Positions 1-47,663 of a stretch of 64,000 nucleotides of DNA are shown here, one piece after another (the stretch's first letter is position 1; each line of letters opens with the position of its first letter). The notes under the pieces were generated by a model. The model did no database searches. It saw nothing but the letters and a program-made list of their open reading frames with translations, and had not been told where the DNA came from. The stretch spans positions 26,288,001 to 26,352,000 of the forward strand of contig OX597816.1 in the NCBI GenBank assembly GCA_951406725.2. Reading direction: 5' to 3'. The DNA comes from Octopus vulgaris. Its lineage: Eukaryota. Both the position numbers and the translations under genes were made by a program.

Positions 1-520
1 CACCCTCCCTGTCCCTTTACTACACTCTGTTGCGCCCCCTCTCTTCCTCTTCCCCCTTTTTCCTTCCTACCTTTCCTCTCCCTGTTCCCTCTAAGGCTCA
101 CCACCCCCCTGTCTCTTTTTTCCTCTCTCTGTCTCCTTCCTCCACACCACCCTCTCTGTCCCTTTACTTCACTCCCTGGTACCTCTATCCTGCCCTCTCT
201 CTCTCTCTCCCTCTCCATTTCATCTCTCTCTTCCTCTCCATTTTATCTCTCCGCCTTTCTTCTCCCTGCCCCCCTAGGGTCCACCCTCTTGTCTCACTTT
301 TCCACCCTGTCCCTTTCTACTACACCTCTATCCCGCTCACTCTCCCCCTGCTGACCTGCCATTCTCTCACCTTTCTCTTTTTCCCTCTTATTTTCTCTCT
401 TTCTCTCTTCTCTCAGGAAAATCCCCTCGTCTCTCTCTCTATCCCCCCTGGCTTTTCTCCTTTCTCTTCTCCCTCTCCATATCTCTCCTTCTCTATCTCT
501 CTCTCTGTTCCTATATTTCA
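1..520 (+). repeat. CT-rich LINE leader with degenerate ~150 bp tandem units
   Basis: Motif caccct(c/t)..gtcccttt(ct)actacac recurs at ~1, ~148 and ~303. Confidence 0.55.
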
Positions 521-530
521 CTAGAAGAAA

Positions 531-1427
531 ATGGCAAGAAACTGGTCTGCGAGAGAGGTGCAATTGTTCGTCCGCGCTTGGAAGATCGCTGAGGACGACT
601 CGCCGAACGAAATTATTGCTGCGGCGCTGAAAAGCAACAATTTTTCGAGAACCACCGCCCAGATAGAGCGAAAGAAGAGAGAAGTTATCCGTTCGTACGC
701 TCTAATCAGGCAACATGTGGACACCCTGGACATCATCCTGGGAGGTGACGGCAGCAGGGAGGGCCAAAAGGATGAGGAAAGCATCCAGAGCCAAATGGAG
801 AAGCCTGGAACACAGGGAAACGATGACACATGTCCAGCTTCCAACACCACAACTGAAGACCAAAGAGGTGCGATGGCCGCAAGAAAGGAAAGGCACCCTG
901 GAATTGATGGGAAGCAGGAGGTAAAGGGTGACAGAATCAAGGCTAAAGGAAGCCCTGTCCAGAGAAAGCAGAGGGACCCCAGCAAAAACTGTAAGGGCAG
1001 GGAAAGAAACACCTGCAAATTCTACCTGAGGGGGGACTGCTGGTACGGCGTTGAAGGTGCAAACTGTCGCTTTGCACATCGGAGGCCCTACCAAAACCGC
1101 ACGGACGCGAGACAGAGGTCCCTCCCTCAGGGAGAACAAAAACAAAAAGTTAAAAGAAGGGAAAAAAGCGCACTGACCACTACTGAAAGACGGTATGCAG
1201 ATGTGGTGCGCGGAAACCCAACAGGTGGCCAGCTTCACCCAGATGTGAGAAGGGCGGCAGCTGAACAGCAGTCTTTTTTGTGCATGGCACAAAAAATTGT
1301 TCAGCAGCTGACCTGGCTACAAGCACAAAGCTGGAACTACCACCACATAAGGCCACCTCCAACAGATGCAGGATGGCCACCACAGACACCAACACCAACA
1401 CACACACCACAAAAATATTTCTACTGA
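531..1427 (+). CDS. LINE ORF1 protein (Myb/SANT-like N-terminus + CCCH zinc finger)
   Basis: 298 aa ORF in good ATG context (aaaATGG). RNWSAREVQLFVRAW...IAAALKSNNFSRTTAQIERKKREVIRSY resembles the trihelix Myb/SANT pattern; CKFYLRGDCWYGVEGANCRFAH is C-x7-C-x8-C-x3-H. Confidence 0.8.
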   Translation: MARNWSAREVQLFVRAWKIAEDDSPNEIIAAALKSNNFSRTTAQIERKKREVIRSYALIRQHVDTLDIILGGDGSREGQKDEESIQSQMEKPGTQGNDDTCPASNTTTEDQRGAMAARKERHPGIDGKQEVKGDRIKAKGSPVQRKQRDPSKNCKGRERNTCKFYLRGDCWYGVEGANCRFAHRRPYQNRTDARQRSLPQGEQKQKVKRREKSALTTTERRYADVVRGNPTGGQLHPDVRRAAAEQQSFLCMAQKIVQQLTWLQAQSWNYHHIRPPPTDAGWPPQTPTPTHTPQKYFY

Positions 1428-4383
1428 ATGTAGGAGGGCTGCTGCGCGGAAACTGTAAAAAGAAAATTTCATTCCTGAGAGACCTTGTGACATGCAATCA
1501 AGCTATATGCATGGCACTCACAGAAACGCATCTTGAACCCGATATAGGTGATGCAGAAATACACATGCCGCAATATGCAGTCATACGCACAGATAGAAAA
1601 GGGAGGAGCCATGGTGGAGTTGCAATGTACATCCGAGATGACCTCACGCCCCAGGTCCTGCTGTCATATTCAAACTCAGTATGTGAAACTCAAATTGTAC
1701 ACATAAGACAACTGAATATCGTCATATGCACTACATATCGCCCACCAGACGCCCCAAAACACTCAGGCATGTTTGAAGACTGCCTAACAAAAATAGGAGA
1801 AGTCCTCACCAACCTTGAACAGCACAACAGTGTATTCTTCATGGGTGACTTTAACCTCCCCAATGTGGAATGGCCTGGGGGGCAGATGCTCCCAGGGATG
1901 ACACACCATCAGCAGGCACAGGTGGAGTCCCTGCTCCATCTCACAAATACCTCTTTCATGGAGCAAATAGTTCTGCAACCAACAAGGGCAGATAATATAC
2001 TGGATCTCTGCTTTACAAACAATATGGATATTATCCATAATGTTAATGTGATGCCGACAATGATCTCGGATCACAACATAATAGAGCTGTCTACGTATGG
2101 AACAAAAGCCCCCGCAGACACACAGCCTATACGAAGCACCCACCATCTCTCCAACTTAAACTTTCATAAAGCCAACTGGAAGTCGATTGAGAAAGAGATC
2201 CTCAAACAGGATTGGCCTGAATGTCTCTCCACACCGGACATAAACATGAAACACAAACACTTCATGTCCATAATACAAGCCATATGTGACAAATATGTCC
2301 CAATGTGCAGGGCCAGCACACACAAGAATAAAAACAGGATCCCTAGAGAAAGGAGGATTCTTATGAGACGACGGACAAGGATTGCAAACCGCCTGAGCAA
2401 GCACACCAAAAGTGGTGAGAAGTCTCGGCTCGAAAGAATGCTAATGGAAACTGAGAAAAGTCTACATCAGTCCCATGAAAAGGAGAGAGCAGATAAAGAA
2501 GCTTGGGTAATAGAAAATATAAAATCAAACCCTAAAGCTTTCTTTAAGTTTGCCAAAGAGACAGCCACAGTGCACCAGAGAATAGGACCTCTCTTCCAAA
2601 AAGATGGCTCTCTCACAGGAAATCCCACGAGGATAAGTGAAATACTGAACGAACAGTTCCAAAGTGTATTCACTACACCTCTAGGACACAGGCAAGTAAA
2701 CAACCCAGAAGAATTCTTTGCCACTTTACCAGCGGCCAAAGAGACAAAAATTGAGTACATCAACATCGAAGAAGATGATATCACACTAGCCATTGATGAG
2801 ATTGACACAAACTCAGCTGCTGGACCTGATGGATTCCCAGCGATCCTTCTCAAATCGTGCAAACGAGCCCTTGCAAAACCGCTACAGCTTCTTTTTCAGA
2901 GCTTTCTTGCAAGTGGTAAGCTCCCAGTCAAACTGAAAGAGGGGGTAATATGCCCTATCCATAAGGGAGGTAGCAGAGCAGATGCTAAAAATTATAGGCC
3001 TATCTCTCTGACCTCACACATCAGCAAAGTCATGGAACGAATAGTCCGTAAGAAACTAATCATGTTCCTTGAAGAAAATGACTTACTGTCTGACACCCAG
3101 CATGGATTTCGACCAGGTAGAGGCTGCCTAACACAGCTCCTGCAACACTATGACTGGGTGTTGAAACAGCTACTAAATGGCTCAAATGTGGATGTAATAT
3201 ATCTTGACTTTGCAAAAGCCTTTGATAAAGTCGACCATGGTATGATCTGTCACAAACTGCGTGGTCTCGGCATAGGCGGGAAACTTGGAGAGTGGCTGCA
3301 CAACTTCCTAAAAGACAGAAAACAGGCAGTTGTGAGCAATGGAGCCACCTCCAGGGAAACGCAAATAACAAGCGGTGTCCCACAGGGCACTGTCTTGGGG
3401 CCACTGATGTTCATAGTGGCCCTTTCAGACATGCCTTCAGTTGCTACGATGACCACCCTTGCTAGCTATGCAGATGACACAAAGGTCTCCCACGCAATAC
3501 AGAACCCTGAAAATATTGCGCATCTGCAACATGAGCTGGACACAATATACAGGTGGGCTGAGGACAACAACATGCAGTTTAATGCAGGTAAGTTCCAGGC
3601 CCTGCGCTACTGGCACACAAAGGTAAATGACGTGAAGACTGGATACACTGGCCCAGGAAGAATTGCAATCCCTGAGTCAAAATCAGTGCGTGACCTGGGC
3701 ATTGACATGAGCAATGATGCATCTTTCCAAATGCATATTGCTAATCTGGTGATAAAATGCAGACGGCTAGCTGGATGGATTCTCCGAACTTTCAGAACAA
3801 GAGAGAAGGAGACACTGATGGTCCTATGGAAAACATTTGTCCTCAGCCGCTTGGACTACTGCTCCCAACTTTGGTCACCACACAATATAAAACAAACAGC
3901 AGAACTCGAAGCAACTCAGAGAAGCTACACAAAGAAAATCGTCTCAATGCAAAATGTCAGCTACTGGGAAAGACTGAAGGTATTAAACCTCTTCTCCCTG
4001 GAGCGGAGGCGGGAGAGATATGCAGCAATATACATCTGGAAAATCCTGGAGGGTCTTGTCCCAAACTTTGGCATTCAAAGTTACTCCAACCGCAGAACGG
4101 GCGCCGCTGCGTGGTGCCAAGGATTCCAACATCACCATCAAAATACAGGTCCAGATACTGCAACAGCTTGGGTTTCAGAGGACCACAGCTTTTCAACATC
4201 CTCCCTAAATGCCTGAGAGACTTACATGGTGTGGATGTGGGTTTCTTTAAAACTAAACTGGATCTCTTCTTGTTGGGAGTCCCAGATGAACCTACCTCAC
4301 GACAGGAGACGCGGATGCGGGCAGCAGCATCGAACTCCCTTGTTGATCAAGTGCCACGTATCAGAGGTGGATTCACAAACTAG
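1373..4383 (+). CDS. LINE ORF2: AP endonuclease + reverse transcriptase, one -1 frameshift at ~4099-4101
   Basis: APE motifs LNVGGL, LTETHL, YRPP, MGDFN, LDLCF, SDH; RT motifs NYRPISL, QHGFR, DFAKAFD, GVPQG, YADD, LGI. The C-terminus (GPQLFNILP...KLDLFL...VPDEP) continues in the 3757..4383 frame. Likely start is the ATG at 1373. Confidence 0.93.
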
Positions 4384-4456
4384 TGTGGCTCATTCAGCGG
4401 TGGTGCCCCAGCATGGCCGCGGCCTTCGGGCTAAAACATTTTTAAGGATTTAAGGA

Positions 4457-4590
4457 TGTATGTATGTATGTATGTATGTTTATATGTATGTATGTATGTA
4501 TGTATGTTTGTATGTATGTATGTATGTAAGTATGTATGTATGTATGTATGTATGTTTATATGTATGTATGTATGTATGTATGTTTGTATG

Positions 4591-4621
<31 letters not shown>

Positions 4622-5200
4622 GTATGTATGTATGTATGTTTATATGTATGTATGTATGTAAGTATGTATGTATGTATGTATGTATGTATGTATGTATGTA
4701 TGTATGTATGTATGTATGTATGTATGTATGTATGTATGTTTGTATGTATGTATGTATGTATGTATGTATGTATGATTATATGTATGTATGTATGTAAGTA
4801 TGTATGTTTGTATGTATGTATGTATGTATGTAAGTATGTATGTTTGTATGTATGGATGTATGTAGAGAGGGAGGGAGGAGGGAGGGAGAGAGGAGGAAGG
4901 GGAAAGGGGGGAGGGGGAGAGAGGATATATATGTATGTACGTATGTATGTATTTGCGTAGTTAGGAAGGTATGTATGTATGTATGTATGTATGTGTGTAT
5001 GTATGCATGATGTGTGTGCGTATTTATGTATGTATGTATGTATGTGCGTATTATGTATTTACATAAGAATGTATGCATACGCCTATGTATGTCTACATGT
5101 GTGTGTGTGTGTATGCATGCATGTTTGTATGTATGTATTGTATGTATGCATGCATGTATATGCGTGTATATGTAGGCTTGTATTTATGTATGTAATAGAC
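4457..5200. repeat. (TATG)n microsatellite field
   Basis: Long degenerate TATG array immediately 3' of the LINE. Confidence 0.95.
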
Positions 5201-8866: not shown

Positions 8867-9264
8867 TTCGTATTTTCTGTTTCAGCTTCGGTCATTGGGA
8901 TATATACATATATGCGCACACACACACACACATACACGCGCAGACACACACACACACGCGCACACACGCGCACACACACACGCACATATTATATATATAT
9001 ATGCAATTATGTATGCACACTTGCATGTAAGTACGTGAGCATGCATGCATGCATGTAAGTATGTATACATACATGTATGTATGCATTTATGTATATATGC
9101 ATTATGTGTGTATGCACATTTATATATGCTTGTATGTACGATTCTGTCTAGCAACACACACATATGCCAGTATATGCAAACGCATGTTATATATATGTAC
9201 TTATATATACATATTGTTCGTGTGTGTATTTGAGTGTGTATGCATGTATGTGTGTATATATATA

Positions 9265-9323
9265 TCCTTAGATCCTTAAAAGTGTTTTAGCCCGAAGGCC
9301 GCGGCCATGCTGGGGCACCACCG
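9265..9323 (-). mobile_element. 5'-truncated copy (3' terminus only) of the LINE at 1-4456
   Basis: Reverse complement cggtggtgccccagcatggccgcggccttcgggctaaaacacttttaaggatctaagga nearly identical to 4398-4456. Confidence 0.9.
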
Positions 9324-24830: not shown

Positions 24831-24919
24831 TAAAATGAAGCTGGATCTCTTCCTGTCAGGTGTCCCAGATGAACCAACTTCACGGCAGGAGGGGCAGATG
24901 AGGGCAGCTGCATCGAACT
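24831..24919 (+). mobile_element. Fragment of the LINE ORF2 C-terminus
   Basis: Encodes KLDLFLSGVPDEPTSRQEGQMRAAASN versus KLDLFLLGVPDEPTSRQETRMRAAASN at ~4255-4335. Confidence 0.9.
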
Positions 24920-47177: not shown

Positions 47178-47663
47178 CAAGCATGGCTGTATGGTTAAAA
47201 CGCTCGTTTTTCAACCATATTCAGTCCCATTGGGCGGCACCTTGGGAAAGTGTCCTGTACTGAAACTCCGGCCCTGTACTAAAACTCCGGCCCGGACGAC
47301 CAATGCCTTGAATACTTTGTGAGTGAATTTGATAGAAGAAAACTGCATGGAAGCCCGTCTTATATACCTATATATGTATTTATATAAATATATATATGTA
47401 TATATATATATATAAACTCGATCTCTATGAAAGATTCCAGACGAGCCTACTTCACAGATGAGGGCTGCAGCATCAAACTCCCTGAATGACCAAATGCCGT
47501 ATATAAGAGGTTTTAAATAATGGTGTAGCACAGTCAACGGTGGTGCCCACGCATGACCGCAGCTTTAAAGCTGAAACATTTTAAAGAAATTTGAAGAAAT
47601 TTTTTAAATATTATATATAGAGAGAGAGGGGGAATAGATAGTGAAAAATAAATATATATATAC

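What the first reader, a model, noticed from the sequence alone, without database searches (positions are those of the whole stretch)
531..1427. LINE ORF1 with apparent Myb/SANT-like domain plus CCCH zinc finger
Seen: residues ~3-56 (RNWSAREVQLFVRAW...IAAALKSNNFSRTTAQIERKKREVIRSY) follow the trihelix Myb/SANT pattern W-S-x-x-E-V...W...IA-x-x-L...R-T-x-x-Q-x-x-x-K...Y, and a C-x7-C-x8-C-x3-H finger lies mid-protein. Established: CR1/L2/Jockey ORF1s usually carry PHD, RRM, CCHC knuckle or esterase modules, while this Myb type is typical of PIF/Harbinger accessory proteins. Inference: an unusual ORF1 architecture with a captured DNA-binding module and an RNA-binding finger. It could tether the RNP to DNA targets; all copies of this family here sit in TA/TATG microsatellites.
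Basis: partly seen in the sequence, partly recalled or inferred. Interest (0 to 1): 0.75.

Follow-up and report, generated by a model that had tools for sequence, protein, structure and literature searches.

The report
Myb-guided octopus LINE targets TA repeats
A young octopus jumping gene carries a Myb-type domain and a CCCH zinc finger in its first protein and sits in TA microsatellites. A conserved slippery site likely fuses that protein to its cut-and-copy enzyme, which would let the Myb domain steer where new copies land.

Summary
ORF1 (531-1427) of a young CR1-group LINE has an N-terminal Myb/SANT-like three-helix domain and a C-x7-C-x8-C-x3-H finger. Both are weak in Pfam for this copy, but relatives pass the Pfam cut-offs, the predicted fold matches mostly Myb/SANT structures, and both modules are conserved at 30-44% overall identity. 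Six Myb families occur in the genome. The three scored sit in TA repeats (3' junction 30/30, 28/30, 26/30). A PHD-ORF1 relative (5/30) and an RTE (1/29) mostly do not; background is 7%. The Myb families are not one clade on the RT tree (AU p=4e-5), so TA targeting follows the Myb module rather than ORF2 ancestry, but on a single PHD control. New here: 11 of 11 elements of the clade carry a -1 slippery heptamer (window 1274-1280), in 10 of them within 3 codons of where the ORF2 frame opens; 5 of 11 have no ATG before the endonuclease. A Myb-CCCH-EN-RT fusion of about 1,285 aa is predicted, R2-like in layout. Frameshifting and Myb DNA binding are inferred, not shown. Endonuclease-only targeting remains a strong rival.

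The parts
1..530 (+). 3' part of the pyrimidine-rich 5' UTR. This copy begins about 696 nt before the window, next to a TATG run, and is 5'-truncated; full-length copies have a 5' UTR of about 1.7 kb.
531..1427 (+). ORF1, 298 aa
   Evidence: 28 of the top 30 genome copies are full-length without a stop
531..746 (+). Myb/SANT-like (trihelix-type) domain, aa 1-72, with a basic third helix
   Evidence: dN/dS about 0.2 in A-D and B-B2, helix-3 net charge +5
1014..1079 (+). CCCH finger C-x7-C-x8-C-x3-H, aa 162-183; closest solved relatives are muscleblind-type fingers
   Evidence: family profile against 2e5s E=2.7e-4, MBNL1 E=7e-4
1194..1343 (+). YADVV motif and C-terminal helix (aa 222-271), conserved between families
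1274..1280 (+). Predicted -1 ribosomal slippery heptamer T TTT TTG, three codons after the ORF2 frame opens
   Evidence: present in 11 of 11 clade elements; background 0.0032 per codon
1265..4383 (+). ORF2 frame: APE endonuclease (about 1454-2074), RT (about 2957-3676), C-terminal region; own ATG at 1373. The apparent frameshift in a G run at 4096-4098 is probably a read error.
   Evidence: the 3 of 4 runs that cover the site show a fourth G
4384..4457 (+). 3' UTR with a UUCG hairpin (read by eye) and a (TTTAAGGA)n tail
4456..5194 (.). (TATG)n microsatellite, the 3' side of the target site
9261..9323 (-). 63-bp 3' fragment of the same family, TA runs on both sides

Best explanation
This is a young CR1-group LINE whose ORF1 carries a Myb/SANT-like domain and a CCCH finger and whose copies sit in (TA)n repeats; a conserved slippery site likely makes some ribosomes shift -1 into ORF2, and the predicted Myb-CCCH-endonuclease-RT fusion would use its Myb domain to hold the enzyme on TA tracts. 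Shown: domain conservation, TA flanks on both sides, the contrast with PHD and RTE families, the heptamer and the open -1 frame. Inferred: frameshifting (about 0.8), RNA binding by the finger (about 0.7), a real contribution of Myb to target choice (about 0.5). The endonuclease probably still picks the nick within the tract, helped by 2-nt pairing of the tail with TA.
For: 3' junctions in TA/TATG runs: family A 30/30, F 26/30, C 28/30. Controls: PHD family E 5/30 (F vs E p=7e-8, both sets 98-100% identical to their query), RTE 1/29, random 7.1%. 5' junctions agree (A 10/11, C 10/12, F 13/22, E 4/23, RTE 0/27), so this is target choice and not a tail. On the RT tree E groups with A-D (97/94) inside a 14-row clade (100/98) that excludes F. 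One clade of Myb families is rejected on RT (p-AU 3.7e-5) and marginally on EN (0.0375). A profile of A-D-type Myb domains scores F at 41-47 bits against at most 7.5 for 300 shuffles and 24-30 for Pfam's model, which suggests a shared mobile module. Heptamer in 11 of 11 elements, in 10 within 1-3 codons of the ORF2 frame opening; family C uses a different valid heptamer (A AAT TTT); 5 of 11 have no ATG before EN; the chance of these codons given S-F-L is about 0.019 per lineage. Precedent: in R2 a Myb domain on the same chain as RT and nuclease binds target DNA, and deleting ZnF+Myb abolishes nicking (PMC10499050, passages).
Against: Only one PHD control family exists in this genome sample, so there are one or two independent contrasts; E itself is mildly TA-biased (17% vs 7%, p=0.058). 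In SART1/TRAS1, swapping EN swaps the target (PMC7265360, passages). The EN tree is poorly resolved. No 3' stimulator was found: folding z about 0 to -1.5 except family C (-2.9), and no compensatory pairs. Families A, B and B2 end the heptamer in G, recalled as a weaker shift site, and A, B, B2, D, F and L247 have an ATG before EN. A SINE with the family C tail is only 9/29 at TA, although its youngest copies are mostly TA-associated by eye, so it does not discriminate. Structural Z is below 8. No binding or translation data.
Confidence: 0.45

Rival explanations
1. The endonuclease alone selects TA tracts (by sequence or by hairpin/cruciform structure); TA specificity arose twice in EN and the Myb domain does something else, such as general nucleic-acid or chromatin binding. 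Frameshifting may still occur.
For: EN is the primary determinant in SART1/TRAS1. E shows a weak TA bias and the SINE a partial one. The correlation rests on one PHD family. EN monophyly of the Myb families is only marginally rejected.
Against: Needs the same target to evolve in ENs only 36% identical (A vs F) while E, equally distant (37%), lacks it, in step with Myb presence.
Confidence: 0.33
2. The Myb domain targets from a free ORF1p in the RNP or by binding a host factor on TA-rich chromatin; ORF2 is made by reinitiation at its own AUG and no fusion is needed.
For: 6 of 11 elements have an ATG before EN. SANT-type domains bind proteins, and SANT rows tie at the top of the fold search. ORF1-mediated targeting through a host factor is recalled for Dictyostelium TRE5-A (not checked here).
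Against: Does not explain the heptamer at a fixed place in 11 of 11 elements, nor ORF2s without an ATG in 5 of 11. Helix 3 is basic (+2 to +5 in 11 of 12 sequences), as recalled for DNA-binding Mybs.
Confidence: 0.15
3. The TA association comes from survival or assembly bias, or from TA runs created at insertion; the domains are real but unrelated to targeting.
For: The genome is microsatellite-rich and the assembly has homopolymer errors.
Against: Family E (age-matched to F) and an RTE in the same assembly are near background; TA lies on both sides of truncated copies.
Confidence: 0.07

Closest known systems
CR1/L2-lineage LINEs, ORF1 types I-V (Khazina and Weichenrieder; Metcalfe and Casane 2014, PMC4120745)
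   Same: APE plus RT ORF2, short tandem-repeat tail, modular ORF1 with a swappable N-terminal reader; relatives here carry PHD in that slot.
   Different: No Myb or CCCH module is listed in their Table 1; their sheet has no octopus entry. No RRM, CCHC, esterase or Tnp22 hit in this ORF1.
R2 retrotransposons (PMC10499050)
   Same: N-terminal Myb plus zinc finger on one chain with RT and nuclease, used to find the target; the predicted fusion has this layout.
   Different: R2 has a single ORF, a restriction-like nuclease, C2H2 fingers and a 28S rDNA target. Here the nuclease is APE, the finger CCCH, the target (TA)n, and the fusion would depend on recoding.
Repeat-specific APE LINEs SART1/TRAS1 (PMC7265360)
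   Same: Two-ORF APE LINEs that insert into a simple repeat.
   Different: Telomeric target, specificity mapped to EN, ORF2 made through an overlapping UAAUG stop-start (PMC3894237); Gag-like ORF1 (recalled).
Retroviral/LTR gag-pol -1 frameshifting (U_UUU_UUA is the HIV site; PMC5009743)
   Same: Same heptamer, same logic: abundant ORF1 product plus a minor fusion with the enzymes.
   Different: Non-LTR element; no downstream stimulator found; untested.
Myb_DNA-bind_4 / trihelix proteins (GT-1, Zeste; Harbinger Myb partners, recalled)
   Same: Pfam family match in relatives and fold match to GT-1 and Zeste DNA-binding domains.
   Different: Sits in a retrotransposon ORF1; no donor was identified.

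Membership tests
Non-LTR retrotransposon, APE type | ORF2 with APE endonuclease and RT | tested here: met
   Exo_endo_phos_2 E=1e-10, RVT_1 E=9.5e-30
Non-LTR retrotransposon, APE type | 5'-truncated copies sharing a fixed 3' end with a simple tail | tested here: met
   common 3' end and tail in 30 of 30; 11 with a scorable 5' truncation
CR1 group | RT groups with reference CR1/L2 elements | tested here: inconclusive
   No named references on hand. The clade (100/100) is sister to unnamed metagenome elements whose PHD-plus-L1-like ORF1 I labelled by eye. RT and C-terminal motifs look CR1-like from recall.
ORF1 types I-IV | RRM+CCHC, Tnp22, PHD(+RRM) or esterase | tested here: not met
   Pfam finds none at E<=10; the model has no beta-sheet domain
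Myb/SANT-like (PF13837) | Score above the Pfam cut-off | tested here: inconclusive
   This copy 16.1 of 27 bits; homologues F (29.9) and P0043 (29.3) pass
Myb/SANT-like (PF13837) | Three-helix fold with long third helix | tested here: met
   (predicted; Z 7.3, rmsd 2.6, 58 aligned; TEAD tied)
Myb/SANT-like (PF13837) | Sequence-specific DNA binding | not testable with these tools
   needs EMSA or SELEX
CCCH zinc finger | Conserved C-C-C-H ligands with aromatic residues | tested here: met
   ligands kept in families A-D, F, P0008, P0010, P0016; B2 passes the Pfam cut-off
-1 programmed ribosomal frameshift signal | X XXY YYZ heptamer in the ORF1 frame with an open -1 frame into ORF2 | tested here: met
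   11 of 11
-1 programmed ribosomal frameshift signal | 3' stimulatory stem-loop or pseudoknot | tested here: inconclusive
   none by single-strand or alignment folding except family C; pseudoknots not modelled
-1 programmed ribosomal frameshift signal | Trans-frame product detected | not testable with these tools
   needs reporter, mass spectrometry or ribosome profiling
R2 clade | Single ORF with restriction-like endonuclease and rDNA target | tested here: not met
   APE nuclease, two frames, TA target
PIF/Harbinger Myb protein as donor | Domain nests among Harbinger Myb proteins | not tested
   no labelled Harbinger sequences were recovered

The most novel reading that the evidence does not exclude
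A lineage of CR1-group LINEs makes its enzyme as a gag-pol-like ORF1-ORF2 fusion by -1 ribosomal frameshifting. The N-terminal ORF1 module therefore acts as a swappable targeting head on the endonuclease-RT: PHD gives loose targeting, Myb gives (TA)n targeting. The Myb head entered two octopus lineages, converging on the R2 layout. Similar heptamers in 7 of 12 outgroup elements suggest that frameshifting is a general, overlooked way in which CR1-group ORF2 is translated.
Probability: 0.35. Interest if true: 0.9.

Novelty: new variant of a known kind. Interest (0 to 1): 0.78.

Why it matters
How non-LTR ORF2 is translated, and what besides the endonuclease directs insertion, are both open questions. 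This clade offers a precise, cheap test of each: a 7-nt site and a 72-residue domain, with natural Myb and PHD variants that differ in target in one genome. If the head module sets the target, it is a natural example of a retargetable APE LINE, and it explains how several active families spread in a microsatellite-rich octopus genome while avoiding genes. It also adds two ORF1 modules (Myb, CCCH) not listed in the surveys read here.

Tried and rejected
ESM Atlas gave no result. A search for longer, fused Myb proteins of 511-2000 aa found none, which is weak evidence. A Myb-ORF1 profile found only 2 proteins among 5,849 candidates. No Myb hit in the three plus-strand frames of 79 metagenome LINE loci, but most lack ORF1; only 4 clade members had upstream sequence. 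Sequence search of PDB found no Myb match, only CCCH fingers. An 8-row RT tree rooted on RTE did not resolve E against F. The Myb-domain tree was unresolved. One search used wrong coordinates and was discarded. A first flank count with tail patterns gave lower numbers (A 26-28/30, E 4-5/29, F 14-18/25) and was replaced by one rule for all families; the direction is the same. An intron in the pyrimidine-rich 5' UTR was considered; no canonical joint appeared in 4 laid runs. Expression is not established: the runs are only guessed to be RNA. The SINE test was ambiguous because of age. Earlier scan findings: none. Literature: 10 searches; the listings showed no paper on a Myb or CCCH ORF1 in a CR1-type LINE, and 'CR1+ORF1+Myb-like+retrotransposon' gave 0. 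Repbase, Dfam, subscription papers and the Zenodo library of PMC13282606 could not be seen and may already hold these families.

Full report
The element. Window 1-4457 is a two-frame LINE: ORF1 at 531-1427 (298 aa) and an ORF2 frame from 1265 with APE endonuclease and RT, ending in a (TTTAAGGA)n tail that runs into a (TATG)n array. All 4 homologues from the word-indexed search are labelled Octopus vulgaris. The family is young: 28 of the 30 best genome matches span residues 1 to 294-298 without a stop at 93-100% identity (132 of 3,917 candidates scored). Three of four fetched copies share one 5' start about 1.7 kb upstream of the ATG, each next to a TA run; the window copy is truncated 1,226 nt upstream. 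The break near 4098 is a run of three G in 15 and four G in 12 of the 27 copies that could be read (of 30); the 3 of 4 laid runs that cover it show four G, so it is probably a read error.

The domains are real. Pfam hits for this copy are below cut-off. A search of 1.84 billion representatives gave 40 hits, several with the whole layout at 32-38% identity. Using these as queries revealed four more young families in the genome (B, B2, C, D) with ORF1 35-44% and ORF2 64-73% identical and different tails, and a distant family F with Myb plus four CCCH fingers and ORF2 39% identical. Against A, identity in B, B2, C and D is 46-57% in the Myb domain, 56-70% in the finger and 5-17% in the linker; Myb dN/dS is about 0.2 where dS could be estimated (2 of 3 pairs). 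F and P0043 pass the Myb_DNA-bind_4 cut-off and B2 the zf-CCCH cut-off. The predicted three-helix domain matches mostly Myb/SANT structures, at Z up to 7.7 only and with TEAD tied. The finger is closest to muscleblind-type RNA-binding fingers.

The Myb domain fills a swappable slot. Family E in the same genome has a helical region, a PHD-like finger (Pfam E=0.033), three CCCH fingers, the first with the same spacing, and the same C-terminal motif. Metagenome relatives L252 and L254 also have PHD-like plus CCCH ORF1s (L254 by eye). These CCCH elements form one RT clade (100/100); E groups with A-D and F falls outside (19 of the 79 metagenome loci used, chosen for length or visible ORF1). One clade of Myb families is rejected on RT (p-AU 3.7e-5) and marginally on EN (0.0375). 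PHD is the simplest ancestral state, with Myb gained twice or passed between lineages (inference). A profile of A-D-type domains scores F well above Pfam's model, which favours a shared mobile origin.

Target sites. One rule was applied to the 30 best 3'-end matches per family (of 40 listed): a TA or TATG-type run starting within 40 nt of the end. A 30/30, F 26/30, E 5/30, random positions in 200 kb 7.1%; C 28/30; an RTE family 1/29, the query copy left out. At 5' junctions: A 10/11, C 10/12, F 13/22 (some are probably internal deletions), E 4/23, RTE 0/27, random 5%. B, B2 and D flanks were read by eye and are mostly TA. TA targeting thus follows the Myb module and not ORF2 kinship. Limits: E is the only PHD control and is itself slightly enriched (p=0.058). 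A SINE with the family C tail gave 9/29 and 9/22, with the youngest copies more often at TA, so it cannot separate ORF1 from ORF2 effects.

A probable frameshift. The invariant F-L near the end of ORF1 is always encoded as T TTT TTA or T TTT TTG, and family C has A AAT TTT instead. In 11 of 11 clade elements with a visible junction there is exactly one such heptamer in the register that leads into ORF2; in 10 it lies 1-3 codons after the ORF2 frame opens, and the frame stays open for 45-143 codons before the endonuclease. Five have no ATG there. Heptamers occur at 0.0032 per codon elsewhere and stops at 0.055 per codon upstream in that frame. About 8 of the 11 are independent lineages; in L250 the ORF1 frame is open for only 44 codons upstream. 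U_UUU_UUA is the HIV shift site (PMC5009743). The predicted fusion is 1,286 aa in an intact family B copy. Against: no 3' stimulator was found, A, B and B2 end in G, and six elements have a usable ATG. Seven of 12 outgroup elements also show a heptamer with ORF1 open for over 100 codons upstream, at varied positions and without a matched control.

Mechanism. Most ribosomes would make free ORF1p, which likely packages the RNA through the finger and basic linker. A minority would shift -1 and make Myb-CCCH-EN-RT, in which the Myb domain holds the enzyme on a TA tract while EN nicks and the tail end pairs by about 2 nt (seen at junctions). This parallels R2, where Myb and a zinc finger on the RT chain find the target (PMC10499050). 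The main rival is EN-only specificity, as shown by EN swaps in SART1/TRAS1 (PMC7265360).

What was read. PMC4120745: parts 1-3 of 6, and supplement 1 part 2 with two term searches; its Table 1 lists no Myb or CCCH module. PMC13282606: parts 1-2 of 3; reports 13 recently active CR1 families in O. vulgaris, with no ORF1 or target analysis in those parts. Passages only: PMC13343379 (no myb or ccch), PMC5203782 (no myb or ccch; an HTH_1 ORF1 in an alga), PMC9115989, PMC10294476 (mentions an unclassified octopus clade in the I superfamily that I could not compare), PMC7265360, PMC10499050, PMC2868851, PMC3894237 (no 'frameshift'), PMC3520747, and PMC5009743 (first 300,000 of 449,034 characters; among non-LTR elements it names frameshifting only for HeT-A gag). 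From recall, unchecked: frameshifting has been proposed from ORF overlaps in some LINEs, TRAS ORF2 has a Myb-like region, and TRE5-A ORF1p targets through TFIIIB. Repbase and Dfam could not be searched.

Verdict. A real, apparently uncatalogued ORF1 architecture with a controlled link to TA targeting and a strong sequence signature of -1 recoding. New variant of a known kind; interest 0.78.

Noticed in passing
L260, L262, L265, L266, L267, L278, L280, L288 (ORF1/ORF2 overlap): Outgroup CR1-like elements with other ORF1 types also have slippery heptamers (A AAA AAC, T TTA AAC, T TTT TTA, A AAA AAT) in a -1 overlap; 7 of 12 with ORF1 open upstream (L260 has heptamers but not an open ORF1 frame). 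-1 frameshifting may be general in the CR1 group.
   Followed up: partly
L029 SINE; L124:6330-6420: An abundant SINE (tRNA-derived by recall) shares its 3' hairpin and GTAAAAGA tail with family C, its likely partner LINE.
   Followed up: partly
L165-L177 (family E), P0031, L252, L254: A PHD plus triple-CCCH ORF1 with an N-terminal helical region, itself absent from the Metcalfe and Casane table, appears widespread in unnamed invertebrate-like contigs.
   Followed up: partly
L414, L415, L417, about 1.7 kb upstream of ORF1: Full-length copies start with AAGATGGCG, which resembles a YY1 site (recalled), a candidate internal promoter.
   Followed up: no
window 4459-4505 and L418 upstream junction: The 5' and 3' TATG flanks of the window copy are nearly identical over about 48 nt including an interruption, a possible long target-site duplication.
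   Followed up: no
window 1274-1296: The heptamer is one arm of a 10-bp inverted repeat conserved in A, B and B2, without compensatory changes.
   Followed up: partly
window 1-530: Long C/T-rich 5' UTR ending in an AG just before the ATG, like a splice acceptor; no canonical spliced joint seen in 4 runs; the assembly drops single bases in its homopolymers.
   Followed up: partly
window 24831-24919 and 47457-47586: 3' fragments of related LINE families, both in TA-rich flanks.
   Followed up: partly
L117:6641-7996, L132:6812-7900: A further F-like family with a TA 3' flank; its ORF1 was not seen.
   Followed up: no
L117, L119, L120, L125, L130: Different families are stacked in the same TA tract, so tracts act as insertion sinks.
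   Followed up: no
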